Notes: a model not told the origin generated them from the sequence alone. Numbered from the stretch's first letter, positions 3 through 31,318 are shown. The stretch: DNA of 32,000 nt from Cuniculiplasma divulgatum (GCF_900083515.1 NZ_LT671858.1:1800001-1832000); one strand, 5' to 3'. Numbers and translations: made by a program.

Positions 3-1088
3 ATGAGGCACAGAATTCCGGAGATTGGTAGAAATATCATTAAAAAATCCAAATTAACAAGAGATTCTTTCATTGATTTCCTTGAGGAAGTAAAGGGTAT
101 TAAAGTCTTTAAAAAACGTGAATCTATGGTTGTAGATTACTGCAAGACTAATGGGCTAGACTCACATATTTCTGAAGTGATGGAAATAGTTGAAAATGAT
201 ATAGATTATGAAATGCCCGTTTCTCTACTAATGGATAAGGTTAACCCAGGGCTGAAGGAAAAACAGGTCAGACAGATAGAAAAGATCTCTGACTATTATA
301 ATTTGCTTTCAAGAATAGATATGATGAAACTTGAGATGTGCTCATCTGATTTGCCGGAGCGGGAGAATTTAAAACTAAATATTAAAACTCTGGAGAGAGA
401 GTGTAATAAGAAATATTTTCCTCTAAAGATCTCGTTATTGTTTAGTAAGAGATTCATGTTAAAGGAATTCGTAAAAGAAGCCAGGGCATATTCCATAGAG
501 ACCATGAAATCAATTGGAATTGAAAGGGCGGAGTCCATATTTAATAAATATCACGATCAGCTACCTCCGGGAATAAGACACTTATGTCTTTTTGGTCTCG
601 CAATAATAGGAGACCCAGATCTTATGATACTGGATGAACCCACTTCGTCCATGGACACTTTTACCCAGACGAAGTTACTTGACTCTGTTAGAAAATTATC
701 ACATTCAAAGGGAAAGACAGTTCTTTTTATCACAAACGAGATTGCATTGCTTGCAGGAATAGCTGGAAGATTGGGAATAATCTATGCGGGGAACTTAATA
801 GAGGAATCAACAACTCTTGAGATATTCAACAATTCAAAACACCCATTTACCATTGATTACCTCTCATCTTCAAAAGTCAGTATGGAAGGTACTGAAAATA
901 ATGTTCCTCTTGAATTCATACAGGGTGAACCGCCAGATCTGGTGAATCCACCCAGTGGATGCAAATTTCACCCCAGGTGCAAATTTGCAATGGATGTATG
1001 TTCAGTGAAGGTTCCGGGAATGATAGAAGTGTCAAGAAATCACAGGGTAGCCTGCTTTTTATATTCTGACAAAACGGAGGTTCAGTAA
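3..1088 (+). CDS. Opp/Dpp-type oligopeptide ABC transporter ATP-binding subunit, 5'-truncated by the window edge
   Basis: The frame is open to position 1 and no Walker A occurs in the 361 aa seen, so the gene starts upstream of the window. Walker B is LMILDEPTSS. The Opp/Dpp ATPase C-terminal tail is present: HPFTIDYL ... GCKFHPRCKFAMDVC ... HRVACFLY. The signature position reads LPPGIRH and the H-loop position reads FITNE. Confidence 0.8.
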   Translation: MRHRIPEIGRNIIKKSKLTRDSFIDFLEEVKGIKVFKKRESMVVDYCKTNGLDSHISEVMEIVENDIDYEMPVSLLMDKVNPGLKEKQVRQIEKISDYYNLLSRIDMMKLEMCSSDLPERENLKLNIKTLERECNKKYFPLKISLLFSKRFMLKEFVKEARAYSIETMKSIGIERAESIFNKYHDQLPPGIRHLCLFGLAIIGDPDLMILDEPTSSMDTFTQTKLLDSVRKLSHSKGKTVLFITNEIALLAGIAGRLGIIYAGNLIEESTTLEIFNNSKHPFTIDYLSSSKVSMEGTENNVPLEFIQGEPPDLVNPPSGCKFHPRCKFAMDVCSVKVPGMIEVSRNHRVACFLYSDKTEVQ

Positions 1089-1089
1089 A

Positions 1090-2541
1090 ATGGTTGATGG
1101 TAAAATTGTGCTTTATGCCTCTCATATCTCCTATAATACTCCAAAAAGTGATATATTTGGTATGGAAAATTCAGGTATAAGAATACTTGATGATATATCA
1201 TTTAAACTTCACGAGGGTGAATCCATGGGTATCATAGGAGAATCAGGAAGTGGAAAAACTGCACTTATTGATATTTTATTATCCCTAATTAAACCAACTT
1301 CTGGAGAATTATTCATGGATGTTACTAAGGAGGTTGGTGAAGAGCTAGATGAAATTAACAGGCGAATAGAAAAGATAAATGAACTTTTTATAGAAAAATA
1401 TGGATATAATCCTGATGAAGAGGAGATAGAGGGAAATGATGAACTCGATCTTCTTACAGAGAGATATGAAGAATTGTGCAAAGAGCTCTCCATATTCAGG
1501 ATGAATAATAGAGAGATAAGCAAAAAACGTGGATATATTCAACCAGTATTTCAGGATGTATATTCAACTCTTGATCCAAAAAAGGACATTATGAGTTCCC
1601 TGTCAGAACCCTTAAGGTACATCCAGCACATTAATCGTGAAGAAATAGGTTACAGGTTACAGAATATTATGACTGAAGTAGGAATAGATGAGAAATCACT
1701 TTCCAAATATCCAGTCCATCTTAGCGAGAGTGAGAAACAGAAAGTTGCCATTATGAGAGCATTATCAGTAAACCCCAGGATAGTTGTTATGGATGACCCT
1801 ACAGCATATCTAGATGTCACAATGAAAATAAAGCTATTCAACCTTATAAATCAGAGAAGATCAGAGAATGGGACGTCATTTATAATAGCCAGTAGCAACC
1901 TAAGTTTTATCAGCACTTTCACACAAACTGTGGCAGTCTTATGCAGGGGGAGAATAGTAGAAATAGGTCCATCCATAGATATTTTCTCCAATTCGCTTCA
2001 CCCTTACACAAAGGCACTGATTTCTTCCATTCCCAGTTCTGATCCGTCAATTAAAATTGAGGGCATAGCTCTTAGAAAACATGGACCTGACTATGAACAA
2101 ATACCAAAGGGATGCGTATTCCATTCCAAATGCCCAAACGTTATGAGTAATTGTGGCTGGTCAACTGAGGATATTCAACCTTACATCAGAGAAATTATTG
2201 ATGAATATAGACTTGATGATCCTGCTTCCATACCTGAAATTGAGAATATAATATCTGACGAGGGCGAAAATCTGATTGAAATTTCATTCAGGGATGAAGA
2301 GAATTATGATCAAAATATAGTGAGAAGAAAGATTGAGGAGCTTATTGAAATAAGAAAACAAAAACCTGATGGAATCAAATTTGGAGCAATTGATTTCATA
2401 GAGTTTGAGGCTGAGAATAATAATCTTATCATACAGTTGATAAAGCCGGTTTTACCAAAAATGATAGAGGTCTCAGAGGATCATTTTGTTTCATGTTTCA
2501 TGTATACTGTAGATGAAGAAGAGAAAGAGCCCCAAAACTAA
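1090..2541 (+). CDS. Opp/Dpp-type oligopeptide ABC transporter ATP-binding subunit (second ATPase) with two large insertions
   Basis: ATG lies 1 nt after the upstream stop. Walker A is GESGSGKT (1237-1260) and the Q-loop is IQPVFQD. The signature position is LSESEKQK and Walker B is IVVMDDPT. The C-terminal tail reads HPYTKALISSIP ... GCVFHSKCPNVMSNC ... DHFVSCFMY. Confidence 0.85.
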   Translation: MVDGKIVLYASHISYNTPKSDIFGMENSGIRILDDISFKLHEGESMGIIGESGSGKTALIDILLSLIKPTSGELFMDVTKEVGEELDEINRRIEKINELFIEKYGYNPDEEEIEGNDELDLLTERYEELCKELSIFRMNNREISKKRGYIQPVFQDVYSTLDPKKDIMSSLSEPLRYIQHINREEIGYRLQNIMTEVGIDEKSLSKYPVHLSESEKQKVAIMRALSVNPRIVVMDDPTAYLDVTMKIKLFNLINQRRSENGTSFIIASSNLSFISTFTQTVAVLCRGRIVEIGPSIDIFSNSLHPYTKALISSIPSSDPSIKIEGIALRKHGPDYEQIPKGCVFHSKCPNVMSNCGWSTEDIQPYIREIIDEYRLDDPASIPEIENIISDEGENLIEISFRDEENYDQNIVRRKIEELIEIRKQKPDGIKFGAIDFIEFEAENNNLIIQLIKPVLPKMIEVSEDHFVSCFMYTVDEEEKEPQN

Positions 2542-2599: not shown

Positions 2600-3499
2600 A
2601 TGCATGATCTCCTGTATATTATTCTTACAGAAATACTAATGACGCCATTCATAGTGTTTGTAGTACTTTTCGTTTCTTCAAAATTTAGTTCCATGACTGT
2701 AAGAAGCATTTCCCTCATCCTCTTTCTACTGTCAATGATGTCAGGAATGCTGAATTCTCTGAACTATTATCTTCTGTATCCTCATGGCTTCCTAAACCAG
2801 GTAATGGCAATCAACATTTCAATGTTTGAAATGACAATTATTATTTCATATATTCTTGTTTCAGCTTTCAACGGTAATATTGGCAAAATGACAAAGACAC
2901 ATGCTAAATGGATAGGAATACTTGTTGGGTGGAATGAGGTCTCAATGGCTCTGTTCCTGTACTCACTAGCATATGGCTTTGGGACAAACGGAGAACTGGT
3001 GAATACAATTAATATAATCGGAGCTGGAATCACGAACTACCTTTTTACCATCCCCATGATTATTGAAATGGTATCGCTTCTATTTCTAAAGATTCACAAC
3101 GGATTGACGTTGAGAATTTCAACTGGAATAATTGCAATGCAGGCCTCAGATCCTGGTCTTTTCAGTGGTCTCTATTCTATTCCGCTTATTATTGTGTTTT
3201 CCACAGTAATGATAGTAGTTCTATATTTTGTTCTATCGTACACATATAAGAACAGAAAGAATTTGGAAAATGAATGGAGAAAAATGTTGAATTATTTCAT
3301 CTTTCTAATACTTCTTTCATCTATTGGTCTTGTCATGAGTGCCATAATTCCAGGGCCATTTGGAGTTAAATGGATAATTTTTGCCCTTTCAATGGCCTTC
3401 TCAATGGTATATTATTTCCTTATATCCTTTAAGTTCTTTGACTCCAGCACACCAGTAGCAATCAGGAGGAAATTACTTGAAAGTGAAAGCACAGACTGA
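2600..3499 (+). CDS. Polytopic membrane protein of unknown function (about 8-9 hydrophobic helices), paralogous to the N-terminal module of the neighbouring 3534-5513 ORF
   Basis: ATG start and hydrophobic composition throughout. Shared motifs with the neighbour: LLSMMSGML, SMFEM, IPMIIEMVSLLFLKI. Confidence 0.6.
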   Translation: MHDLLYIILTEILMTPFIVFVVLFVSSKFSSMTVRSISLILFLLSMMSGMLNSLNYYLLYPHGFLNQVMAINISMFEMTIIISYILVSAFNGNIGKMTKTHAKWIGILVGWNEVSMALFLYSLAYGFGTNGELVNTINIIGAGITNYLFTIPMIIEMVSLLFLKIHNGLTLRISTGIIAMQASDPGLFSGLYSIPLIIVFSTVMIVVLYFVLSYTYKNRKNLENEWRKMLNYFIFLILLSSIGLVMSAIIPGPFGVKWIIFALSMAFSMVYYFLISFKFFDSSTPVAIRRKLLESESTD

Positions 3500-3533
3500 T
3501 TATGAAAATATACATCAATGATTCGTCACTACT

Positions 3534-5504
3534 TCACTCTTTCTTCATTACCTTTTCTTTTAGGAAATTTCTAACATCATAGAAGAATATATTTTCATAT
3601 GGGCATGCCTCTACGCAATCTCCTACGCCAACGCATCTTGAATTCTTGAACTGTCCTTGGGATATAAAACTGCCTGGCTGGGATGATAACCCTACTGGGC
3701 ATGCAAGAGCACAGTCTTTTGTCTTACATGTTACACACTGACTAGGATCCTTAACCTTTAGTTTAAAAAGCCCATATTTTCCAACAAAGCGATTGAAATT
3801 TCCCCAGTGGCAGTAACCTGTGTTAATACATCCATAATTTCCGAAATATGGCATCGTGAGGAAAACTGCGTACCACATTATGTCAAATATAATTATGTAC
3901 ATGAAAAAAAGAGGATCAGTACCGTAAATTTCGTAGTTTAGGATATGATAATGATATAAGAAGGAGAAAAGGGCAGCAACTGCCAGAGAGATATAGATTG
4001 TAAATGAAACTACCCTGTAAATAAGATTTCTTTCTCCCCCAGTGCTCAATTTTTTGGCAGTAGGTGTTGTCCTGTTAAATTTCTTCATAGAATCGTAAAA
4101 AGTGCCCTGATACATAAGTGGAGCTGTACAGAATACTGAACACAGTTGCCTTGCACCAAAGAGAAGTGATAATGAACCACTTATAACGTAAGTAAGAAGC
4201 ATAGGTATTATTAGAGCTGGAGCAAGCCCTCCAGCTGTGCCTATTCCCATGGACCACCCAATAAAGGGGTATATCCTGGAGTTTGTTACAAGGAAGCTTG
4301 GTATAAGGATTGAGTAGATACCATAGGCACCAATCATCAGTCCTAACCTGATTTTGTTTTCAAGTTCTCTTGTTTTCATTATTTTGAAAACTACCAGGGA
4401 ACCCATTTCAAATCCCATCATTATGAGAAACCATGAGGAACCTGTAATACCACCTACAAATACAACTGTATTATAGAAGAATTCTGTAATCATATTGATG
4501 ATACTTCCAGAAAAAACAGCAAGATGGAGACTGTTTATGAAGAATGACGTTCCATAATATTGAAAATCAAATGTTGCTCCCATTGCAAATTCAGCAATAA
4601 AAACATCCATAAGGAAGAGCGTTGACCACTCTTTATTAGCAAGCCAGTAAACTTTTCCCTTGCCACTAAAATAATTCTTTCTAAGAATTGCATTGATATA
4701 TACAATCATTTCAAGAAGAACCGCGATAGATACAATTAAAACTGATGATTCGTACTGAAAAATCATTACCCCAATCATCATGAGGCCGTAGATCAGCAAT
4801 ATCTGTAATAGATATCTTGAAAAATTCTTATTGACATAACTTTCCCTGTAGAGACTTTCGAAAATGAATATGAGAAGGGCAGTCATTACTGCGCCACCAG
4901 CGAACACTGAAATGCTGATCCATGTATTTTGAGGGATAGCAGTTGGTGTGAAAAACATGACCAGTGACTGAAAAATTATGAAAATGAATGCTATCTTTTC
5001 CCCTTTTCTTATTGTGAAAATTGCGGTTAGTCCCATTTCCAGTGCCATGGGAAAAATGAACCAGAATGATGAAACCGTTTGAGAGATTAATGCCACAAAA
5101 CTTGTTCCATAAATCGTAAATATTGTTTTTGATAGGATTATTGAATTAAAATCAAGACTCATCAGAAATTCATTCAGTAATGTGAGAAATATTATGACTG
5201 GTATGCTTATTCTTATTTCAATATCTTCCTGTTCAATTGAACGTACAAAGAGGATCAGTGGGTATATGATTTCTATTGCCATCAGCCCTGCTGAGATGAC
5301 AATTGCATCTTCCAGTGAGATTGTGATAACTCCTGAAAGATATATCGAAGGACCGAGCAACATTCCGTTCATCATTGCCAGCAATATGTATGTGATAATT
5401 TTTCTCAGAGGGTTTTCAGCAGTTCTTGACAAATACAAAATATATGATGTGAATATTCCCATGAGACCCGCAATAAGTCCCAGTATCCACATATCATAGT
5501 TCAT
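3534..5504 (-). CDS. Large polytopic membrane protein with a duplicated membrane module and a C-terminal polyferredoxin-like (COG0348/NapH-like) Cys-rich domain
   Basis: The track start at 5513 is TTG. The first ATG is at 5504 (MNYDMW...). Numbering from 5513, Cys pairs C458-x3-C462 and C562-x5-C568 lie between hydrophobic helices. They are followed by C593-x2-C596-x4-C601-x3-C605-P and C627-x5-C633-x3-C637-P. Confidence 0.7.
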   Translation of the reverse strand: MNYDMWILGLIAGLMGIFTSYILYLSRTAENPLRKIITYILLAMMNGMLLGPSIYLSGVITISLEDAIVISAGLMAIEIIYPLILFVRSIEQEDIEIRISIPVIIFLTLLNEFLMSLDFNSIILSKTIFTIYGTSFVALISQTVSSFWFIFPMALEMGLTAIFTIRKGEKIAFIFIIFQSLVMFFTPTAIPQNTWISISVFAGGAVMTALLIFIFESLYRESYVNKNFSRYLLQILLIYGLMMIGVMIFQYESSVLIVSIAVLLEMIVYINAILRKNYFSGKGKVYWLANKEWSTLFLMDVFIAEFAMGATFDFQYYGTSFFINSLHLAVFSGSIINMITEFFYNTVVFVGGITGSSWFLIMMGFEMGSLVVFKIMKTRELENKIRLGLMIGAYGIYSILIPSFLVTNSRIYPFIGWSMGIGTAGGLAPALIIPMLLTYVISGSLSLLFGARQLCSVFCTAPLMYQGTFYDSMKKFNRTTPTAKKLSTGGERNLIYRVVSFTIYISLAVAALFSFLYHYHILNYEIYGTDPLFFMYIIIFDIMWYAVFLTMPYFGNYGCINTGYCHWGNFNRFVGKYGLFKLKVKDPSQCVTCKTKDCALACPVGLSSQPGSFISQGQFKNSRCVGVGDCVEACPYENIFFYDVRNFLKEKVMKKE

Positions 5505-5554
5505 CAGAATCAACTTAGTAGAAAATATTGGTATTTAAGATATGCCAGAAAAAT

Positions 5555-6847
5555 TTAGAGAACGATAATACTTTCCACGTAAAGTGTCATCAGCGTAATA
5601 AACAGAACGGGAATACCTACAATAAGTCCCAGTTTCATATATTCAATCGTATTTATCTTTATCTTGGCCTTTCGATCCAGCATATATAGCCATACGAGAG
5701 TCGCCAGAGATCCTATGGGTGTAAATTTTGGCCCTATGTCATTGCCTATTGCATTTGTCAGTAGAATTATTCCAGATATGTGAAGATGCTGTAGTGTAAG
5801 ATCACCCAGCAATACTGAAGGAAGATTATTCATTATAGAGGCTGTGAATGCAAACAGGAATCCAGTCATAACAAAATTCATACCAAAGGGGAATGATTGA
5901 AAGTACCCTACTGCCTTTGCCATGTAAAAAACCATCCCATTTGTTGCAAGTGCATAGACCACTATGTACATTCCAAGAGAGAAAAGGATAATCTGCCATG
6001 GGGCTTCTTTCACAGGCTTTACATAATCTATTTTTCTGTTTTTTCTTGCAAGTAGCAACATGAAAACTGCTGCCGGCATGGCAACTATTGAGACTGGAAT
6101 ATTATAGATTCCACCTACTGAATATAATACCACAAGACTAATGATTACTGGAAAGAAAAGTTTAAAAATTACAGGATCTTTGATATCCTCATTCTTGAAC
6201 TCAACTTTTTTTGGGATTTTAACGGGTATTGACTTTCTGAAATAGATTAAAAGAAATAGGAGGCTCGCAATAATGCTCACCAGATCGGGGACTATCATTA
6301 CCTCCATATAAGGAAAGAAATCTATTCCAAAATATGTGGCTGCTATAATATTTACAAGATTACTAACCAGAAATGGGATACTGGCAGAGTCAGCTATGAA
6401 GCCAACTGCCATTATATAAGCGAATATAGCTTTCTTATCAAGACCTATCCTGTACAGAAGGGCCACTATCACCGGGGTTAAAACGAGGGCCGTACCATCG
6501 TTGGCAAAAAAGGCTGAAATAAAAGATCCCACCAGGATTACTAGTATGAATAATCTCTTTCCCGATCCACCTGAATAATTGAGTATCTTTGTCGCAAGAT
6601 ATTCGAAAACCCCTGCTTCATCAAATACCAGTGCTATAATCACGACGGATACAAATGTCAGGGTTGCGTTCCAGACAATCGATACAACATTTAAGAAATC
6701 CACAAATGTTGTGAAACCAGCTAAAACTGTTATTATTGCTCCGATTGATGCTGAGTATCCAATTTGAATTCCCTTTGGCTTCTTAATTACAAGACTTAGG
6801 GTAAATATGAAAATTCCAAGACTTATGATGAAATCAACTAAGTTCAC
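5555..6847 (-). CDS. arsB: Arsenical pump membrane protein ArsB (arsenite efflux permease)
   Basis: Alignable by eye along its full length with E. coli ArsB: VWNATLTF, FANDGTALVLTP, FIADSASIPFLVSNLVNI, IKDP, APWQIILFSLGMY, SIMNNLPSVLLG, GPKFTPIGSLATLVWL. GTG start at 6847 overlaps the arsC stop by 14 nt. Confidence 0.9.
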   Translation of the reverse strand: MNLVDFIISLGIFIFTLSLVIKKPKGIQIGYSASIGAIITVLAGFTTFVDFLNVVSIVWNATLTFVSVVIIALVFDEAGVFEYLATKILNYSGGSGKRLFILVILVGSFISAFFANDGTALVLTPVIVALLYRIGLDKKAIFAYIMAVGFIADSASIPFLVSNLVNIIAATYFGIDFFPYMEVMIVPDLVSIIASLLFLLIYFRKSIPVKIPKKVEFKNEDIKDPVIFKLFFPVIISLVVLYSVGGIYNIPVSIVAMPAAVFMLLLARKNRKIDYVKPVKEAPWQIILFSLGMYIVVYALATNGMVFYMAKAVGYFQSFPFGMNFVMTGFLFAFTASIMNNLPSVLLGDLTLQHLHISGIILLTNAIGNDIGPKFTPIGSLATLVWLYMLDRKAKIKINTIEYMKLGLIVGIPVLFITLMTLYVESIIVL

Positions 6848-7238
6848 TTGACAGTTCCCCGACCTTTTTAATGATTTGATCCCTAATGCTCCTTACCTCT
6901 TCCAGAGATTTTCCCTTAGGGTCCTCTAATTCCCAGTCTACCATTTTTTTCTTAAGTCCAGCAACCAAAGGAGCTGGACATGAGTCTTCTGCTGAACATC
7001 CCATTATGATCACCATATCGGCCCATTGAAGCATTTCTGCATCCATCTTTTTCGGGAGGGTTAAATTAATATGAATTCCAAGTTCTTCCATTACCTCAAT
7101 TGCCAACGGGTTAATACTAGTCCCGGGCAATGTTCCTGCACTTTTGCAAGTTAATCCAATATGATTTCCATAGGCCTCAGCCATTTTGCTTCTGGCTGAA
7201 TTCTCAACACACAGGAAAAGTATTCGGTTTTTATTCAT
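6834..7238 (-). CDS. arsC: Arsenate reductase, thioredoxin-coupled LMW-PTPase-fold type
   Basis: P-loop C10-VENSA-R16-S matches CX5R(S/T). The distal Cys pair C81/C87 sits in MGCSAEDSCP, and the DP motif is WELEDPKGK. The gene lies between arsR and arsB. Its ATG overlaps the arsR stop by 8 nt. Confidence 0.75.
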   Translation of the reverse strand: MNKNRILFLCVENSARSKMAEAYGNHIGLTCKSAGTLPGTSINPLAIEVMEELGIHINLTLPKKMDAEMLQWADMVIIMGCSAEDSCPAPLVAGLKKKMVDWELEDPKGKSLEEVRSIRDQIIKKVGELSSELS

Positions 7239-7572
7239 TTAATGAACCTTTCAAAATTTTAGATCCTATTGCACTGGTTTTGTAATAAATCCACCTTCCA
7301 TCTTTTCTTCTGTTCAACAACCCACTTCTAAAAAGTTCTTTTATTTCATTTGATACAGTTGGCTGTGGTGAATCGGTTATGGCTGAAATATCACATACAC
7401 ATAACTCCATTTTTTCAAGCAAATGGATAAACAAGAGTCTTTTTCCATCGGACAATGCTCTGAACATCATTTCTTCCGTACGAATATTTGAGACAAACTT
7501 ATTTTCAGATACAAATTGCCTAAGCTCCAGAAGTTTCTCTTGGTCAATTTTTCTACAAGTTTCAACATTCAT
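7231..7572 (-). CDS. arsR: ArsR/SmtB family metalloregulator
   Basis: ELCVCD metalloid-binding motif followed by a winged-HTH segment (ISAITDSPQPTVSNEIKELFRSGLL). First gene of the ars cluster. Confidence 0.85.
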   Translation of the reverse strand: MNVETCRKIDQEKLLELRQFVSENKFVSNIRTEEMMFRALSDGKRLLFIHLLEKMELCVCDISAITDSPQPTVSNEIKELFRSGLLNRRKDGRWIYYKTSAIGSKILKGSLNE

Positions 7573-7688: not shown

Positions 7689-9164
7689 CTAAGATTCTAG
7701 CCTTCCAAATTGGATTTCCCCTAATAGATAGAATATGATAGTCCAAATCAAGCTAGCTGTAAAAACTTCTATGAATGTAAAACCTACTGTATTTGCGTTT
7801 ATACTTAATTTCTGAAAAGCATTTATAGGGCTAATGATAGAGATATAAGTTATATTTGGAGTGAGGAGTAAGTCACTCCTAATAGTGCTGAAAGGAACTA
7901 ACCTCGTAAAGAACAAAGATATTCTACTAAAACCGTAGAAAAGGAATAGAATGAGAGTCAGTGGATAAATGAGCTGTTTGGCCTTGTTTTTCGTTCCGCT
8001 AATAAGAAAAAAAGTTAGGGATGAAGCTGACATGCCAACCATGAAAAGATCGCTAAAAACATAAAGAGAACCAAATTTTGTCAAAAATGTTCCAAGGAGA
8101 TATATTGATGACAGATAGGATGTTAGGAATGTCGCCAAAACTGCAAGGAAATTTGCTGTTGCTAAAGCCAGGTATTTACCAGCATAAATATTCCATCTCT
8201 TCACGGGTAGAGAGAGAATAAAATCAGTTTGACCATCGCTTACGGGAAAACCTACTATAAATATTATTGTAAGAGCCTCAAATAAAATTAGAAACAGGGA
8301 TAACACAGTAGATATCTCTCCAATGAATTCTGAATTCACTGTACCTTCTGATGGAAGTATGTAGAACAACTGATATGTTTTATTATTGATCTTATCTGTG
8401 CCGTTACTTATTCCATAATCTCTAGGTATGGATAGATGAGACGTTACCCATGATCCATTTACGCGATGTTCTAGTAATCCCCATGCATTTCCGTGGGTAA
8501 AATTATATGAGATAGATAATGTCTCGTGAGTAAAACCCCCACTCTCCCCTAGATTTATGATTTTACCATTAGAGAGGAGAAGACGATAATCCATTGTTTT
8601 TGTATATTCAGGGAATACATTTACATTAATTATTTCAAGAGATCCCTTGTACGCCAATGCACAATCATAAACTGGAAAGTAATAAGTAGTGTTTACTGGT
8701 GTAGAATTTACCGGCACAATAATTTCTGGCTCAGAGCCGTATTTTGCAATTGGTGAAAAGACACGATAAGCTTTATTAGATCGAAACGAAGTAAATGCAT
8801 ATCCATTCTTTATTGTAAAATTAAGACGGTGAATAATGCTGCCCGAAGTGAAATTGCAGTTTGCCTTATCTGTTGGACCAACCTCAAGGAAACACTTCTC
8901 ATTATTGAATGGAATCCCGCTAGTCGCATGATAATAATATATGCCAAAGTTATATGTACCATTTTCGTAATCATAAGTAATAAAACCTCTTTCCTGCGCC
9001 CCGATGGATTTCTTATTTTTTGGAGAGTAAGCAAAGGCAGTAATAGACATTATTATAATTATAAAAATAATCATTGCAATGAAGCTTTTTTTTCGGACTG
9101 TGTTGATAAAAGTATTTATTATCTTGTTTTTGCACCTCTTTCCCTTAAATGAAATTCCATTCAT
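7689..9164 (-). CDS. ABC-2-type transporter permease with a large N-terminal ectodomain (paralog 2 of 2)
   Basis: The track start at 9257 is TTG. The ATG at 9164 forms an ATGA overlap with the upstream stop (9161-9163). Architecture is an N-terminal anchor helix, a sequon-rich ectodomain of about 270 aa, then a multi-helix C-terminal domain. It shares motifs with the 9161-10663 product, for example SLPVKRWNIYAGKY versus SMPIKKWQIFLGKY. Confidence 0.65.
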   Translation of the reverse strand: MNGISFKGKRCKNKIINTFINTVRKKSFIAMIIFIIIIMSITAFAYSPKNKKSIGAQERGFITYDYENGTYNFGIYYYHATSGIPFNNEKCFLEVGPTDKANCNFTSGSIIHRLNFTIKNGYAFTSFRSNKAYRVFSPIAKYGSEPEIIVPVNSTPVNTTYYFPVYDCALAYKGSLEIINVNVFPEYTKTMDYRLLLSNGKIINLGESGGFTHETLSISYNFTHGNAWGLLEHRVNGSWVTSHLSIPRDYGISNGTDKINNKTYQLFYILPSEGTVNSEFIGEISTVLSLFLILFEALTIIFIVGFPVSDGQTDFILSLPVKRWNIYAGKYLALATANFLAVLATFLTSYLSSIYLLGTFLTKFGSLYVFSDLFMVGMSASSLTFFLISGTKNKAKQLIYPLTLILFLFYGFSRISLFFTRLVPFSTIRSDLLLTPNITYISIISPINAFQKLSINANTVGFTFIEVFTASLIWTIIFYLLGEIQFGRLES

Positions 9165-10663
9165 TCCTTTTTTGACCAAATAATAACGCCTCCAACTGAA
9201 AATATAACAATCCAAAAAATTATTGAAACTATCACTTTTTGATTGTCTGGTAAGCAAAGAGAGTGAACTGGAGAACCCTGATAGGAAAAGAAGATGCGAT
9301 AGTACTCAAAAGGGTTGAAAAATTCAAAGTTTAGTACTTCTGAATAATAAACGAGGAAACTAGAAACTAAGCGATCATAGACATAGTAAGTAAATAAAGT
9401 TATTACTATCGGCAATGATATTATTTTAATAAGACTCTTTGATATTGAAGTTATAAAAAAGGATAGGGATACACCAAACATGCCCAAAAGGAGTATGGGA
9501 ATAAAAACCTGAGCAATTCCGGAGTTGTTTGTAAAGAAAGAGTTTAAAATAGTATTCGTTAAATATGAGGATAAAAGTACTGTCAAAGTAAATATCCCTG
9601 TGACAAATAACAGAGAGATGTACTTCCCAAGGAAAATTTGCCATTTCTTTATTGGCATAGAGTTGGCAAACTCTATTTCCCCGTTAGTTTTTTGAAACCC
9701 GAATGCAACTGTGGAAATTATGGAGCAAAAAATGACCAAAATTAGAGAAAATTGTCCAGAAAATTGCATTCCAAGGTTATCAGTAATTATGGTAACTGAG
9801 GGGTATGAATAGAAATAGATTGGGTATTGTGTAGAGTGTAAAGATGAGGTTGTCCATGTGCCATTTACCTTTTTCTCAAGCTCTCCGGTTACAACACATC
9901 GTGCAGTTAATTCTGAGCTGGATAGTAATGGACCTGAAGCATGATTATTCTTAAGTTGCTCCTTTGTTGGCACCGGAATTGATATAACTCTGTGTTCAAA
10001 CCCGCCTAATAACCCGAGATTAAGAGTTACATTGTCCGATTCAACAAGCCGATATTCATAGTATGAGGTTGGTTTATAATTATAAACATTGTTTACCAAT
10101 AGGAGAAAGCCAATGTTTGTATTATTCCCATCATAAACGGATTGGTAAGAGATGTTATTGTTAGAAATATTCCCATTTATAGGGCTCAATGTCCCTCCTG
10201 TGCTTCCCAAATTATTAAATGATACGTGGCAACACCAATATTTGTCAGATTTAAAAGAAATATTTGCATATCCACTTGAGTTAGTTGTAAAATTGATTGT
10301 AATAGTCCTCTTTCCTGAAAGGCTTTGGTTTTTTATCAGAAGGTCGGGGCTTAGTCTGACATGTCCTTTTAAACCTGACAAAGGCTTACCGCAGTTTGAG
10401 GAGTATGCGTGAATTCCGAAGTAGTAAGTCTGATTGTGATAAGTAGTACAGGATTCACAATAATTTGCAGCATTTATGCTCTCACTTGTTTTTTGGGTTC
10501 CAGAGATGCTAAACACAGTTAGAAAAATCATAAAAAATATGATTGACATAAGAAATATCTTCTTTCTAAAAGTGTTTTTAATTACTGACACAATTCTATT
10601 CGCTGATCTTCCTTTTGAAATACTCCTCCACCTCCTCTTTTCTTTCACTGAGAGAAATGACAT
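9161..10663 (-). CDS. ABC-2-type transporter permease with a large N-terminal ectodomain (paralog 1 of 2)
   Basis: ATG at 10663 overlaps the ATPase gene by 68 nt. Alternative GTG starts are at 10648 and 10591. Architecture matches the 7689-9164 product. Conserved blocks: TY.FGI, NFT..GYA..SF, YRL....NLG..GGF.H, VNG.W.TS. Confidence 0.65.
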   Translation of the reverse strand: MSFLSVKEKRRWRSISKGRSANRIVSVIKNTFRKKIFLMSIIFFMIFLTVFSISGTQKTSESINAANYCESCTTYHNQTYYFGIHAYSSNCGKPLSGLKGHVRLSPDLLIKNQSLSGKRTITINFTTNSSGYANISFKSDKYWCCHVSFNNLGSTGGTLSPINGNISNNNISYQSVYDGNNTNIGFLLLVNNVYNYKPTSYYEYRLVESDNVTLNLGLLGGFEHRVISIPVPTKEQLKNNHASGPLLSSSELTARCVVTGELEKKVNGTWTTSSLHSTQYPIYFYSYPSVTIITDNLGMQFSGQFSLILVIFCSIISTVAFGFQKTNGEIEFANSMPIKKWQIFLGKYISLLFVTGIFTLTVLLSSYLTNTILNSFFTNNSGIAQVFIPILLLGMFGVSLSFFITSISKSLIKIISLPIVITLFTYYVYDRLVSSFLVYYSEVLNFEFFNPFEYYRIFFSYQGSPVHSLCLPDNQKVIVSIIFWIVIFSVGGVIIWSKKE

Positions 10664-11528
10664 CCAATTGTATTTTATTTAGTGATTCTGCAACCTTGAA
10701 GGAACTGCCCTTTTTTCCTGAATAGTTTTTGATTGTTGCTTTTCCATACCTTTTACTTTCTTCAATTGATAATTCCACATCTCCAAAGGCAGACAATATG
10801 TTGACGATATTTTCATTATCAATTTCATTTTTACAGTAGAATGAGACTTCCACCGTTACTTTATTCACTATGTCATCTACCATTACATTGTCTAAGATCT
10901 TTCCCTTATTAATGATGATGAGTCTGTCACATAGTTCGGATATTTCCGGAAGTATGTGTGTGGAGAGAAGTACGCTCTTCCCTTCTTTTTTAAGATTCCT
11001 TATGGTGTCCTTGAGAAAGAATACTCCAGATGGATCAAGACCATTGAATGTTTCATCTAACAGGTAGTTCTTAGAATCCATGAATATTCCTATGGCAATA
11101 TGCATCCTTTTCCTCATGCCGTTTGACATGTTTCCGATTCTGATGTTTGCCTTGGTATCTAAGGACACAGCCTTCATGGCTTTTTGCATTCTCTCAATGA
11201 TCTCGGCTCTTCTCATACTCAAATAAGTACCGACTTCCATGAAAATGCTTTTGGGTTTTTCCATATTATCCAATAGGGAGTTCTCCGGAACCCATGCAAC
11301 TGCACCATTAATCCTTATTTTATCTTTTCTTACAGACATACCGTCAATAAGAACATCTCCTTGACTGGGGTTAATGACCCCACAGGCTATTTTCATTGAT
11401 GTGGTTTTGCCAGCACCATTCAATCCTGCAAAACCTACCACTTCTCCTTCTTTAACAGTAAAGTCCACCTGATCCAAAGCTTTAAACTTTCCGAAATTCT
11501 TTGATACATCCTGGAATTCAATGGACAT
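10596..11528 (-). CDS. ABC transporter ATP-binding protein (ABC-2 / DrrA-like subfamily)
   Basis: Walker A GLNGAGKTT, variant signature MSNGMRKRM, Walker B YLLDETFNGLD, H-loop LLSTH. First gene of a three-gene minus-strand operon. Confidence 0.9.
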   Translation of the reverse strand: MSIEFQDVSKNFGKFKALDQVDFTVKEGEVVGFAGLNGAGKTTSMKIACGVINPSQGDVLIDGMSVRKDKIRINGAVAWVPENSLLDNMEKPKSIFMEVGTYLSMRRAEIIERMQKAMKAVSLDTKANIRIGNMSNGMRKRMHIAIGIFMDSKNYLLDETFNGLDPSGVFFLKDTIRNLKKEGKSVLLSTHILPEISELCDRLIIINKGKILDNVMVDDIVNKVTVEVSFYCKNEIDNENIVNILSAFGDVELSIEESKRYGKATIKNYSGKKGSSFKVAESLNKIQLDVISLSERKEEVEEYFKRKISE

Positions 11529-30175: not shown

Positions 30176-31318
30176 TTAATTCAGTTTAACCCAGAGTTCC
30201 TTGAACCCATAAACTATTGTACTTTCCTGTGGAATCATCTTCCTGTTTCTTAGTATTTCATATGAATCAAAGTTTTCAGTCATGTACTCCATCGCAATTT
30301 TAGCCTCAAGTCTGGCCAGGGGTGCACCAAGACAGTAATGAATGCCTTCTCCAAAGGCTATGTGTCTGTTTTCCTTCCTGCCAATAATGAATTTATCTGC
30401 ATCTTCAAAAATACTTTCATCCCTGTTGGCTGAACCGATCCACGGAACCATTATGCTCCCCTTCCTGATTGGAACTCCACTCAGATCTGTATCGTCTCTT
30501 GCTACTCTGTAAATAGATTGTACTGGACTCCTGTATCTAAGCACTTCCTCAAGAGCCTGTGGAATAAGTTTGGAATCATCTCTCATGGCCTCATAAGTAC
30601 CTGGATTTTCACTGAATGTGAGAAGAGCATTTGAAAGCAGGTTGGTTGTGGTTTCATTTCCAGCTACAAGTAGAAGGATAAAAAATCCCAGACTTTCCAT
30701 CATTGTCAGCTTTTCTCCATCTACTTCAGCATTTAACACGGAATATACAAGGCTTTCGTCAGGGTTTTTCTCTTTTTCTATCATAAGTTTCTGGAAATAT
30801 CCTTTCATATCTTCTATGGTTTTAGGAAAATTTGTAAAAGAAGTCTCAGACCCTCCAACTATTGTATCTGACCATTTCTTGAACATATCCATATCTTTAA
30901 GTGGTATTCCAAGCATGGTTGCAATAACAGTAATGGGAAGGGGTGATGTGAATTCTTTTATTATGTCGACTTCGTGTCCTTTTTTTGCATTCAAGAGGCT
31001 TTCTGCTATTTCCCTGATCTGTGGAGCCATTTTTTCAATTGTCCTTGGGGTAAATGCCCTCGATACAATATTCCTGAGCTTTGTGTGCTTTGGTGGATCG
31101 AGATTTATGATGCTCTCAGATATTGGTCCACCTGCTGGGTTGAAAGCTTTACCAAACTGTGATGAGAATTTGTTAAAATTTCCCAGTGTTTCTTTAACAT
31201 CCGTATATCTGAAAACATTTACGAGCCTGTATTCTGGATCATAGTATACAGGGTTCTCGGATCGCATTCTTTTGTACCAGGGGAAGGGATTCATTATATC
31301 CCTGCTCATCTCATCCAT
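30176..31318 (-). CDS. Cytochrome P450
   Basis: Heme-thiolate loop FGEGIHYCLGAPLARLE, K-helix EEVLRYRSP (ExxR), I-helix VAGNETT. Confidence 0.9.
   Translation of the reverse strand: MDEMSRDIMNPFPWYKRMRSENPVYYDPEYRLVNVFRYTDVKETLGNFNKFSSQFGKAFNPAGGPISESIINLDPPKHTKLRNIVSRAFTPRTIEKMAPQIREIAESLLNAKKGHEVDIIKEFTSPLPITVIATMLGIPLKDMDMFKKWSDTIVGGSETSFTNFPKTIEDMKGYFQKLMIEKEKNPDESLVYSVLNAEVDGEKLTMMESLGFFILLLVAGNETTTNLLSNALLTFSENPGTYEAMRDDSKLIPQALEEVLRYRSPVQSIYRVARDDTDLSGVPIRKGSIMVPWIGSANRDESIFEDADKFIIGRKENRHIAFGEGIHYCLGAPLARLEAKIAMEYMTENFDSYEILRNRKMIPQESTIVYGFKELWVKLN

What the first reader, a model, noticed from the sequence alone, without database searches (positions are those of the whole stretch)
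2600..5513. Convergent pair of paralogous membrane proteins with conserved intramembrane Glu motifs, one carrying a duplicated module fused to a polyferredoxin-like domain, directly downstream of arsB
The 299-aa ORF (2600-3499, +) and the first ~215 aa of the 659-aa ORF (3534-5513, -) match at equivalent positions. LLSMMSGML (43-51) matches LLAMMNGML (44-52). SMFEM (E77) matches MAIEI (E81). FTIPMIIEMVSLLFLKI (E156) matches FIFPMALEMGLTAIFTI (E159, codon 5037-5039). Inside the large ORF the pattern recurs about 210 residues later: AVLLEMIVY (E268) and SSWFLIMMGFEMGSLVVFKI (E369). The latter gives 9/20 ungapped identities to residues 151-170. So the large ORF holds two tandem modules and the neighbour holds a free-standing third copy. 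The C-terminal ~200 aa has Cys pairs between helices (C458-x3-C462, C562-x5-C568). These resemble degenerate CxxxCP pairs of NapH/COG0348 polyferredoxins, reading CTAP and CHWG here. One full motif follows (C-x2-C-x4-C-x3-CP) and one three-Cys motif (C-x5-C-x3-CP). Charged residues buried in repeated helices plus a cytoplasmic Fe-S domain suggest a membrane redox or ion-coupled machine. I cannot assign it to a named family. The large gene starts only 41-50 nt after arsB on the same strand, so it may belong to the ars transcript. A TTAAATA box at about 5534-5541 could instead give it its own promoter.
Basis: partly seen in the sequence, partly recalled or inferred. Interest (0 to 1): 0.7.

Follow-up and report, generated by a model that had tools for sequence, protein, structure and literature searches.

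The report
Archaeal Met-rich membrane iron-sulfur protein pair
Two neighbouring genes of the acid-loving archaeon Cuniculiplasma encode related membrane proteins of an undescribed family; the larger carries a NapH/CcoG-type iron-sulfur domain, and its relatives sit beside copper-dependent respiratory genes, so the pair probably handles copper and is not part of arsenic resistance.

Summary
BLASTP does not detect the paralogy (E 0.36). Profile comparison does (98.5 %, E 2.6e-15), and so do full-length proteins that bridge the two families.

B consists of TM1, two parallel 6-TM repeats, and a NapH/YccM-type region with two Cys pairs and a dicluster ferredoxin whose second site has three Cys. A matches TM1-TM9 of B and is a truncated paralog, not a single module.

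The invariant core is Met and Glu: Met is 13 of 34 invariant positions, and four Glu lie mid-membrane. No Pfam, NCBIfam or PDB fold matches the membrane part.

A lies next to B in every Thermoplasmatales locus with enough flank, usually convergent. In Bathyarchaeia an A-like unit is fused to B. The arsRCB linkage is limited to Cuniculiplasma relatives, and B has its own TATA box. Elsewhere, relatives lie in heme-copper oxidase and cupredoxin clusters.

Best reading (inferred): an A-B membrane complex that reduces and moves copper, like CcoG. It is a new variant of a known kind.

The parts
2600..3499 (+). Gene A, 299 aa. A 9-TM membrane protein and truncated paralog of B (equivalent to TM1-TM9 of B). 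Invariant residues: M47, M50, M75, W111, E113 (2936-2938), M116, P152, M153, E156 (3065-3067), M157, P185.
   Evidence: ORF. Family alignments. hhalign vs B family 98.5 %, E 2.6e-15. AF2 model pLDDT 76.9, with the same helix pattern as the first 10 helices of B. No Pfam or NCBIfam hit.
3500..3533 (.). 34-nt spacer between the convergent stop codons of A and B. No hairpin terminator.
   Evidence: Sequence; scan. In 16 of 30 convergent loci elsewhere the two coding regions overlap at their 3' ends.
3534..5504 (-). Gene B, 656 aa from the ATG at 5504 (659 aa if the TTG at 5513 is used). A membrane Fe-S protein of an uncharacterised archaeal family.
   Evidence: ORF. Homologs are 656 aa and start MNY/MNW. 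AF2 model pLDDT 83.5, pTM 0.85.
4848..5504 (-). B residues 4-222: TM1 plus repeat 1 (TM2-TM7). Invariant residues: M51, M78, E115 (5169-5171), M118, W151, F152, M156, E159 (5037-5039), M160, Q182, M186, P190, M210.
   Evidence: Alignments. Module HMM and hhalign. Topology.
4218..4847 (-). B residues 223-432: repeat 2. Invariant residues: M269, E308 (4590-4592), M311, M365, M366, E369 (4407-4409), M370. Also contains the conserved outer loop G419-W-S-M422-G-x-G425.
   Evidence: hhalign module 1 vs module 2: 93.6 %, E 2.2e-7. Alignment.
3762..4217 (-). B residues 433-584: NapH/YccM-type membrane region. It contains TM14, Cys pair 1 (C458 at 4140-4142, C462 at 4128-4130; C-x3-C-T-A-P), a K/R-rich cytoplasmic stretch, TM15, TM16 and Cys pair 2 (C562 at 3828-3830, C568 at 3810-3812; C-x5-C).
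   Evidence: NCBIfam NapH/MauN E 7e-7 over residues 439-648. 28 of 31 family members hit NapH. hhalign vs E. coli NapH 90.9 % and YccM 89.8 %, with the Cys pairs aligned to their C-x3-C-P motifs.
3579..3761 (-). B residues 585-645: dicluster ferredoxin domain. Motif 1 is C593-x2-C596-x4-C601-x3-C605-P. Motif 2 is C627-x2-V630-x2-C633-x3-C637-P, with the middle Cys missing, so one cluster has only three Cys ligands.
   Evidence: Pfam Fer4_10 scores 27.3 bits against a cutoff of 25.5. PDB sequence hits cover only this domain. Motifs.
5532..5538 (-). TTAAATA, a TATA-like box about 27 nt upstream of a start site next to the ATG at 5504. Probably B's own promoter for a leaderless or near-leaderless mRNA.
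   Evidence: Sequence. A TATA-like box at a similar distance recurs in most of the other Cuniculiplasma-family arsB-B spacers compared, although the spacer sequence diverges.
5555..7572 (-). Context: the arsR (7231-7572), arsC (6834-7238, LMW-phosphatase type) and arsB (5555-6847) operon, directly upstream of B on the same strand. A T5 run follows the arsB stop codon.
   Evidence: Pfam and NCBIfam. Synteny with B is seen only in 11 Cuniculiplasma-family loci. Sequence.

Best explanation
A and B are the two subunits of a membrane complex found only in archaea.

Shown:
- B is a fusion of three parts: (i) a leading helix; (ii) two parallel 6-helix repeats, each with a mid-membrane cluster of invariant Met and Glu on one helix face (MMxxM, E-x2-M, PM-x2-EM); (iii) a NapH/YccM/CcoG-type module.
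- The NapH-type module has two cytoplasmic Cys pairs at the membrane surface and a dicluster ferredoxin. One of its clusters has only three Cys ligands.
- A is a truncated paralog carrying one Met/Glu site and no redox domain. In other lineages the A-like unit is a full-length paralog, a separate short gene, or fused to B.

Inferred mechanism:
- Electrons from a cytoplasmic donor or the quinol pool pass through the Fe-S clusters to the four-Cys site.
- There a soft metal, most likely Cu(II), is reduced. This is what CcoG does.
- The thioether-lined membrane modules of B and A bind and pass Cu(I) across or within the membrane, either to supply extracellular copper proteins (heme-copper oxidase, cupredoxins) or to dispose of copper.
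- Met ligands work at the very low outside pH of these organisms, where His and Cys ligands would be protonated.

In Cuniculiplasma the pair sits next to arsRCB but is probably transcribed from its own promoter.

The confidence of 0.4 refers to the copper reductase/translocase function. The homology, architecture and A-B partnership parts are about 0.9.
For: Homology and architecture (shown):
- Profile-profile and HMM evidence.
- The bridging full-length paralog P0187 is 33 % identical to B over its whole length (E 1e-85) and matches the A profile at about 1e-60.
- The AF2 models of A and B have identical helix patterns over the shared region.

Partnership:
- A is adjacent to B in all 34 Thermoplasmatales loci with enough flank: 30 convergent, the rest co-directional.
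- Short paralogs with the same architecture as A follow B in Nitrososphaerales.
- In Bathyarchaeia an A-like unit is fused in front of a complete B.

Redox module:
- NapH is the model hit by most members (28 of 31, best 7.9e-11).
- The alignment with E. coli NapH and YccM is collinear, motif by motif.
- The paralogs keep a canonical C-x3-C-P motif, and P0201 has a near-threshold Fer4_5 hit.

Metal signature:
- Met is 13 of 34 invariant positions in residues 1-430, against 6 % Met overall (Fisher p 2e-9). In A it is 6 of 16 (p 1.6e-4).
- Four invariant Glu lie mid-helix.
- There are no conserved His, so heme b is unlikely.

Copper and oxidase context:
- Among about 50 loci lacking A there are COX1 (11), COX2 (8), heme O synthase (7), cupredoxins (about 17) and DUF1404 (8), with recurring B-C-cupredoxin and B-C-DUF1404 orders.
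- P0187 is divergent from a COX2-COX1-plastocyanin-UbiA operon.
- Oxyplasma has a 'polyferredoxin NapH superfamily' gene inside its oxidase/cupredoxin cluster (PMC11349054).
- C. divulgatum has a heme-copper oxidase (PMC5155288).
- CcoG is an Fe-S cupric reductase needed for oxidase assembly (PMC7558416; PMC13038864).
Against: - No experiment or structure shows metal binding. Copper is inferred only from Met/Glu chemistry, the CcoG analogy and gene context.
- In the window itself, and in the other Thermoplasmatales A-B loci, no oxidase or copper gene is adjacent.
- The oxidase-linked loci come from a limited number of related lineages, so the counts are not independent events.
- I could not obtain model coordinates, so I did not test whether the Met and Glu residues line one cavity.
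- The NapH-family scores are far below the curated cutoffs. The COG0348 superfamily also includes quinol dehydrogenases (NapH), so the redox partner could be a quinone and not a metal.
- The Fe-S domain was poorly modelled (pLDDT below 60).
Confidence: 0.4

Rival explanations
1. Respiratory electron-transfer module. B is a NapH-like quinol dehydrogenase, or a quinone reductase. It moves electrons between the quinone pool and a partner such as a cupredoxin or the oxidase. The buried Glu serve proton uptake or release, or ion coupling. The Met-rich modules form a quinone or lipid site, not a metal path.
For: NapH is the closest named family. A three-Cys cluster, probably [3Fe-4S], is typical of quinone-linked Fe-S subunits (established knowledge of SdhB/FrdB; motif). 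The gene is embedded among COX1, COX2 and cupredoxin genes. PMC5155288 notes that the electron path to the oxidase in C. divulgatum is unresolved.
Against: The Fe-S clusters and all Cys are on the cytoplasmic side, while cupredoxins and CuA are outside. No heme-binding His is conserved that could carry electrons across the membrane. Thirteen invariant Met are not a known feature of quinone sites. No NapG-like partner lies nearby.
Confidence: 0.25
2. Redox-coupled handling of another transition metal, such as Fe(III)/Fe(II), Mn or Ag, or a generic ion-coupled transporter. Met plus carboxylate sites also occur in Fe/Mn transporters of the NRAMP and VIT1 types.
For: The Met/Glu intramembrane signature. 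The habitats are iron- and metal-rich acidic sites (record titles; PMC5155288). A and B sit beside a metal(loid) resistance operon.
Against: No iron-uptake or iron-storage genes recur in the neighbourhoods, whereas copper proteins do. CcoG, the only characterised reductase of this superfamily, reduces Cu(II) but not Fe(III) (PMC7558416).
Confidence: 0.15
3. Arsenic function. B (with A) is a fourth gene of the ars operon, co-transcribed with arsRCB. It would supply reducing power for arsenate reduction or handle an arsenical.
For: B starts 41-50 nt after arsB on the same strand. This junction is kept in 11 Cuniculiplasma-family loci, down to about 50 % B identity.
Against: No ars gene lies near B or its paralogs in the other roughly 70 loci (Picrophilus, Ferroplasmaceae, other Thermoplasmatales, Nitrososphaerales, Bathyarchaeia). 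A conserved TATA-like box sits in the spacer, and a T5 run follows the arsB stop. As(III) chemistry favours Cys, and the membrane modules contain none. The ArsC here is a thiol-dependent LMW-phosphatase type that needs no Fe-S partner (established knowledge).
Confidence: 0.06
4. No real relationship. The A/B and module 1/module 2 similarities are compositional artefacts of hydrophobic, Met-rich helices.
For: BLASTP E 0.36. HMMER's bias filter removes the cross-hits, and the bias scores are high.
Against: The alignment is collinear over about 260 residues and the invariant motifs coincide. Controls against B's own C-terminal membrane region give E 0.4-0.75. The bridging paralogs are significantly similar to both A and B. 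The predicted helix patterns are identical. Adjacency is conserved and a fusion exists.
Confidence: 0.01

Closest known systems
CcoG / FixG / RdxA and E. coli YccM (COG0348 membrane Fe-S proteins; CcoG is a cupric reductase for cbb3 oxidase assembly)
   Same: A membrane-anchored region with two cytoplasmic Cys pairs flanking two TM helices, followed by a dicluster ferredoxin. It aligns collinearly with YccM at 89.8 %, E 1.8e-6. Relatives are linked to heme-copper oxidase genes.
   Different: B has a roughly 430-aa N-terminal 13-TM Met/Glu-rich domain that CcoG and YccM lack. It has no FixG_C Ig-like domain. Pfam Fer4_5 and Fer4_18 do not hit B. Motif 1 reads C-x3-C-T-A-P, motif 2 reads C-x5-C, and the second Fe-S site has three Cys. 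The family is archaeal, and the associated oxidases are not shown to be cbb3-type (the C. divulgatum enzyme is A1-type). Activity is untested.
NapH / MauN family (TIGR02163, NF007013), the quinol dehydrogenase ferredoxin subunit
   Same: This is the best-scoring named family for B and for its paralogs. The order of Cys motifs and TM helices is the same.
   Different: Scores of 28-40 bits fall far below cutoffs of 213-234 bits. There is no napG or napA context. B has the extra 13-TM domain, degenerate C-x3-C-P motifs and one ferredoxin Cys missing.
Met-motif Cu(I) transporters (Ctr1 MxxxM, CcoA MFS Met motifs, CusA Met triad)
   Same: Invariant Met lie on one face of the TM helices at mid-membrane depth, together with carboxylates. 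This is resemblance by chemistry only, from established knowledge.
   Different: No sequence or fold similarity was detected: no Pfam hit, and Foldseek matches to MFS structures have E above 1 and TM about 0.1. The architecture here is 1+6+6 TM with N-out, and a fused reductase.
Archaeoglobus fulgidus CopZ with an Fe-S domain, the only archaeal cupric reductase described (PMC7558416)
   Same: An Fe-S domain proposed to reduce Cu(II) in an archaeon.
   Different: CopZ is a soluble cytosolic chaperone fusion. It is unrelated in sequence and has no membrane domain.

Membership tests
NapH/MauN (NCBIfam NF007013, TIGR02163) | Whole-protein score at or above the curated cutoff (234 / 213 bits) | tested here: not met
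   28.6 and 28.9 bits for B. The best member E-value is 7.9e-11, still far below the cutoff. The paralogs score 40.4 bits.
NapH/MauN (NCBIfam NF007013, TIGR02163) | Two C-x3-C-P motifs on the cytoplasmic side, separated by two TM helices | tested here: inconclusive
   The positions align with NapH C105/C109 and C197/C201. In B, however, motif 1 is C-x3-C-T-A-P and motif 2 is C-x5-C-H-W-G. Motif 1 is canonical (YCSTLCP) in the paralogs P0187 and P0201.
NapH/MauN (NCBIfam NF007013, TIGR02163) | Two complete four-Cys [4Fe-4S] motifs at the C-terminus | tested here: not met
   Motif 1 is complete. Motif 2 is C627-x2-V630-x2-C633-x3-C637-P, which lacks one Cys.
NapH/MauN (NCBIfam NF007013, TIGR02163) | Genomic association with napG/napA or mau genes | tested here: not met
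   The window neighbours are arsB, gene A and opp-type ABC genes. No such genes appear among the recurrent neighbours in about 80 loci.
CcoG/FixG cupric reductase | Pfam Fer4_5 (PF12801) / Fer4_18 membrane-linked Fe-S region | tested here: not met
   No hit in B or in the 31 members scanned at E <= 0.01. Paralog P0201 has Fer4_5 at 20.8 bits against a cutoff of 22.
CcoG/FixG cupric reductase | C-terminal Ig-like FixG_C domain | tested here: not met
   B ends about 15 residues after the ferredoxin domain, and there is no FixG_C hit. YccM-type homologs also lack this domain (PMC7558416).
CcoG/FixG cupric reductase | Cu(II)-specific reductase activity and Cu binding sites | not testable with these tools
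   This needs purified protein.
CcoG/FixG cupric reductase | Linkage to heme-copper oxidase genes | tested here: inconclusive
   Not met in the window. Met for paralog P0187 and for many non-Thermoplasmatales B loci. It is also reported for Oxyplasma.
Dicluster ferredoxin domain (Pfam Fer4_10, PF13237) | Score above the gathering threshold | tested here: met
   27.3 bits against a cutoff of 25.5 at residues 587-638. 31 of 31 members hit.
ars operon component | Co-occurrence with ars genes across the family | tested here: not met
   arsB lies upstream of B in 11 of 80 loci, all Cuniculiplasma relatives. There is none near the paralog loci.
Known copper transporter families (CopD, Ctr, CcoA-type MFS, CusA) | Sequence or fold similarity of the membrane domain | tested here: not met
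   No Pfam or NCBIfam hit for A or for B residues 1-427, even at E <= 10 / 1. No Foldseek PDB hit with E <= 0.001.

The most novel reading that the evidence does not exclude
B with A is a self-contained archaeal copper reductase-translocase with a previously unseen membrane fold. One complex couples Fe-S-driven reduction of Cu(II) at a four-Cys site to passage of Cu(I) through thioether/carboxylate-lined modules. It would replace the bacterial three-protein CcoA-CcoG-CcoI route, and it uses Met ligands because they still bind at an outside pH near 1.
Probability: 0.25. Interest if true: 0.8.

Novelty: new variant of a known kind. Interest (0 to 1): 0.62.

Why it matters
How archaea, especially extreme acidophiles, load copper into their terminal oxidases and blue copper proteins is essentially unknown. 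The only archaeal cupric reductase described is a soluble CopZ fusion (PMC7558416).

This family gives a concrete candidate that can be tested. It has a NapH/CcoG-type redox head fused to a new Met/Glu-lined membrane domain. It has an obligatory partner that is separate, co-directional, convergent or fused in different lineages. It also recurs next to oxidase and cupredoxin genes.

The work also defines a new membrane-protein family for Pfam-type classification: only 51 representative clusters among 1.84 billion proteins are visible to the A profile, and neither model matches any solved fold. It corrects a tempting misreading that these genes belong to arsenic resistance.

Tried and rejected
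- BLASTP of A vs B gave no significant hit. Default HMMER cross-searches in the window also failed because of the bias filter. Profile-profile comparison and --max were needed.
- Pfam and NCBIfam on A, on B residues 1-427 and on partner C, at permissive thresholds, found nothing.
- A PDB sequence search with the family profile matched only the ferredoxin domain.
- Foldseek of both AF2 models against the PDB gave no match with E <= 0.001. The top rows (MFS, MATE, rhodopsins, importins) have TM 0.1-0.4 and were rejected as generic all-helix matches.
- I tested whether the unknown genes upstream of B in a Nitrososphaerota locus (L001) were A homologs. They are not. One is cupredoxin-like.
- I tested whether partner C is related to A or B. 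It is not (hhalign E 0.09-0.66).
- The sigma-70 promoter and hairpin terminator scan is not informative for an archaeon. I read the spacer directly instead.
- A literature search for DUF1404 returned nothing. The CcoG primary paper (PMC6800367) is not held, so CcoG properties are cited from reviews.


Full report
**1. What is in the window**

The window matches Cuniculiplasma divulgatum. Protein A is 100 % identical to a C. divulgatum protein. ORF A (2600-3499, +, 299 aa) and ORF B (3534-5513, -, 659 aa from a TTG) are present. Homologs of B are 656 aa and begin MNY/MNW, so the ATG at 5504 is the probable start.

Upstream of B on the same strand lie arsB (5555-6847), an LMW-phosphatase-type arsC (6834-7238) and arsR (7231-7572). 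A and B converge, with 34 nt between their stop codons. The only slip is that the 9/20 internal match is to residues 149-168, not 151-170.

**2. Is the A/B resemblance real?**

BLASTP says no (best E 0.36). The profile evidence says yes:
- Profile-profile comparison of the family alignments gives 98.5 % probability, E 2.6e-15. A residues 11-279 align collinearly with B residues 15-279.
- B residues 4-222 against 223-432 gives 93.6 %, E 2.2e-7.
- The same queries against B's own C-terminal membrane region give E 0.44 and 0.75, so hydrophobic composition alone does not produce the signal.
- HMMER's bias filter hides the cross-hits. With the filter off, the B-family HMM finds window A at 1.3e-14.
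- An exhaustive profile search with the A family against 1.84 billion representatives returned only 51 proteins.
- Those 51 include full-length proteins P0187 (665 aa), P0189 and P0201 (728 aa, Picrophilus). Their N-termini are A-type (about 1e-60 to 1e-40) and they continue into a second module, a canonical YCSTLCP motif and the ferredoxin domain.
- P0187 is 33 % identical to window B over its whole length (E 1e-85), so it bridges A and B.
- The AF2 models (B: pLDDT 83.5, pTM 0.85; A: 76.9, 0.78) have the same helix boundaries over the shared region.

**3. Anatomy**

I anchored the Fe-S domain in the cytoplasm and applied the positive-inside rule to the predicted helices (this step is inference). 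The result for B is:
- N-terminus outside, then TM1.
- Repeat 1 (TM2-7, about residues 35-224).
- Repeat 2 (about residues 229-456), in the same orientation as repeat 1.
- Cytoplasmic Cys pair C458/C462 and a K/R-rich stretch.
- TM15 and TM16.
- Cytoplasmic Cys pair C562/C568.
- The ferredoxin domain.

A equals TM1-TM9, that is repeat 1 plus the first two helices of repeat 2. It is not a single free-standing module.

In an 86-sequence alignment, 34 positions of residues 1-430 are invariant. Thirteen are Met (region average 6 %; Fisher p 2e-9) and four are Glu (E115, E159, E308, E369), all mid-helix. They sit on single helix faces: M47/M48/M51, E115/M118, M156/E159/M160, E308/M311, M365/M366/E369/M370. 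A has the equivalent M46/M47/M50, E113/M116 and M153/E156/M157. No His is conserved, and the membrane part contains no Cys.

**4. The C-terminal third**

Pfam sees only a dicluster ferredoxin (Fer4_10, 27.3 bits against a cutoff of 25.5). NCBIfam's NapH/MauN models match residues 439-648, including the membrane part, at E 7e-7. NapH is the model hit by most family members (28 of 31), but always far below the cutoffs.

Against E. coli NapH and YccM, the family profile aligns collinearly (90.9 % and 89.8 %). C458/C462 fall on the first C-x3-C-P motif, C562/C568 on the second (x5 instead of x3), and both ferredoxin motifs are in register.

The second ferredoxin motif is C-x2-V-x2-C-x3-CP. One cluster therefore has three Cys ligands. 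By established knowledge of SdhB/FrdB-type subunits, that pattern is typical of [3Fe-4S] centres. This assignment is inferred.

**5. No known family or fold for the membrane part**

A, B residues 1-427 and partner C have no Pfam or NCBIfam match, even at permissive thresholds. The PDB has no sequence relative outside the ferredoxin domain. Foldseek finds no structural match with E <= 0.001 for either model. Databases call the protein '4Fe-4S binding protein' or 'polyferredoxin'. The only literature mention I found is a passing annotation in the Oxyplasma genome paper.

**6. Gene neighbourhoods (80 reference-genome loci plus look-ups)**

(a) A follows B in all 34 Thermoplasmatales loci with enough flank.
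- 30 pairs are convergent, and in 16 of these the coding regions overlap at their 3' ends.
- The pair is co-directional in Picrophilus (33-nt gap), in a Ferroplasmaceae MAG and in one further MAG.

(b) In Nitrososphaerales, short paralogs with the same architecture as A (module 1 plus about 60 residues of module 2) follow B. In Bathyarchaeia such a unit is fused in front of a complete B, giving proteins of about 1005-1012 aa. This is a Rosetta-stone argument that A and B form one complex.

(c) arsRCB lies upstream of B in only 11 loci, all Cuniculiplasma relatives.
- Their spacers diverge but most keep a TATA-like box about 23-29 nt before the ATG.
- In the window this is TTAAATA at 5532-5538, and a T5 run follows the arsB stop codon.
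- B therefore most likely has its own promoter. Read-through from arsB cannot be excluded without RNA data.

(d) Outside the Thermoplasmatales, B sits among copper and oxidase genes.
- Counts are COX1 (11 loci), COX2 (8), heme O synthase (7), cupredoxins (about 17) and DUF1404 (8).
- A conserved unknown membrane protein 'C' with an invariant Cys-Cys pair occurs in 22-23 loci, giving recurring B-C-cupredoxin and B-C-DUF1404 orders.

(e) The full-length paralog P0187 is divergent (223 nt) from a COX2-COX1-plastocyanin-UbiA operon. Picrophilus P0201 lies 3.5 kb from COX1.

(f) C. divulgatum itself has an A1-type heme-copper oxidase elsewhere in its genome (PMC5155288). No oxidase or copper gene is in this window.

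**7. Mechanism**

Shown: a NapH/YccM/CcoG-type Fe-S head; two (B) plus one (A) Met/Glu intramembrane sites; the A-B partnership; and recurrent oxidase/cupredoxin context in relatives.

Inferred: the complex reduces Cu(II) at the four-Cys site, as CcoG does (PMC7558416; PMC13038864). It then binds or passes Cu(I) through the thioether-lined modules, for maturation of extracellular copper proteins or for copper tolerance.

The habitat pattern fits, because thioether ligands are insensitive to pH (my own knowledge). The family occurs in acidophilic Thermoplasmatales, Marsarchaeota and Sysuiplasma, and in soil and peat Nitrososphaerales and Bathyarchaeia.

I put this copper reading at about 0.4. 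The main rival is a NapH-like quinol-linked electron-transfer role (0.25), followed by another metal (0.15) and an arsenic role (0.06).

**8. Verdict**

It is wrong or incomplete on the ars link, on the nature of A, and on which residues matter.

The system is a new variant of a known kind: the COG0348 redox module fused to an undescribed membrane family with an obligatory paralogous partner. It is a good experimental target for archaeal copper biology.

Noticed in passing
window 3470-3570; loci L014-L032, L039, L082: The A/B pair keeps a convergent (tail-to-tail) arrangement across family-level divergence. In 16 of 30 convergent loci the two coding regions overlap by 4-55 nt at their 3' ends, so their transcripts must be antisense to each other there. 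In the window the stop codons are 34 nt apart and there is no hairpin.
   Followed up: partly
L051:12043-12849 and 22 other loci (e.g. L035, L040, L045, L049, L058): An unknown membrane protein family 'C' of about 268 aa lies directly next to B in Nitrososphaerales, Sysuiplasma and related lineages. It has invariant H97, E106 and a vicinal C211-C212 pair, and a cupredoxin or DUF1404 gene often follows it. It has no Pfam or NCBIfam match and is not related to A or B.
   Followed up: partly
L068:9965-14176 and L079:9959-14170: In two Bathyarchaeia genomes the B-type ORF (A-like unit plus B) reads on without a stop into MacB_PCD and FtsX permease domains (1403 aa in total). An ABC ATPase gene follows. 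This is either a real fusion to an ABC exporter or a shared assembly or annotation artefact.
   Followed up: partly
L086/L087:8197-8982 and 4416-5909 (Picrophilus): The full-length paralog P0201 is flanked by two conserved genes with no Pfam match, of 261 aa (downstream, same strand) and 497 aa (divergent). Picrophilus therefore has both a B+A locus and a separate paralog locus near COX1.
   Followed up: no
window 3-2541: There are two Opp/Dpp-type ABC ATPase genes. The second (1090-2541) has an insertion of about 70 aa inside the ABC_tran domain (residues 33-239 against a 137-position profile) and a C-terminal extension of about 130 aa after the oligo_HPY domain.
   Followed up: no
window 6834-7572: arsR, arsC and arsB overlap by 8 and 14 nt, forming a tight operon. 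The ArsC is of the LMW-phosphatase type but scores far below the NCBIfam arsenate reductase cutoffs (80 bits against 215).
   Followed up: no
window 7689-11528: Two large ABC-2-type permease genes (522 and 500 aa) and an ABC ATPase gene lie on the minus strand. The first permease has an N-terminal region of about 340 aa with no domain match.
   Followed up: no
window 30176-31318 (-): A cytochrome P450 gene (Pfam p450, E 1e-34) in this archaeon.
   Followed up: no
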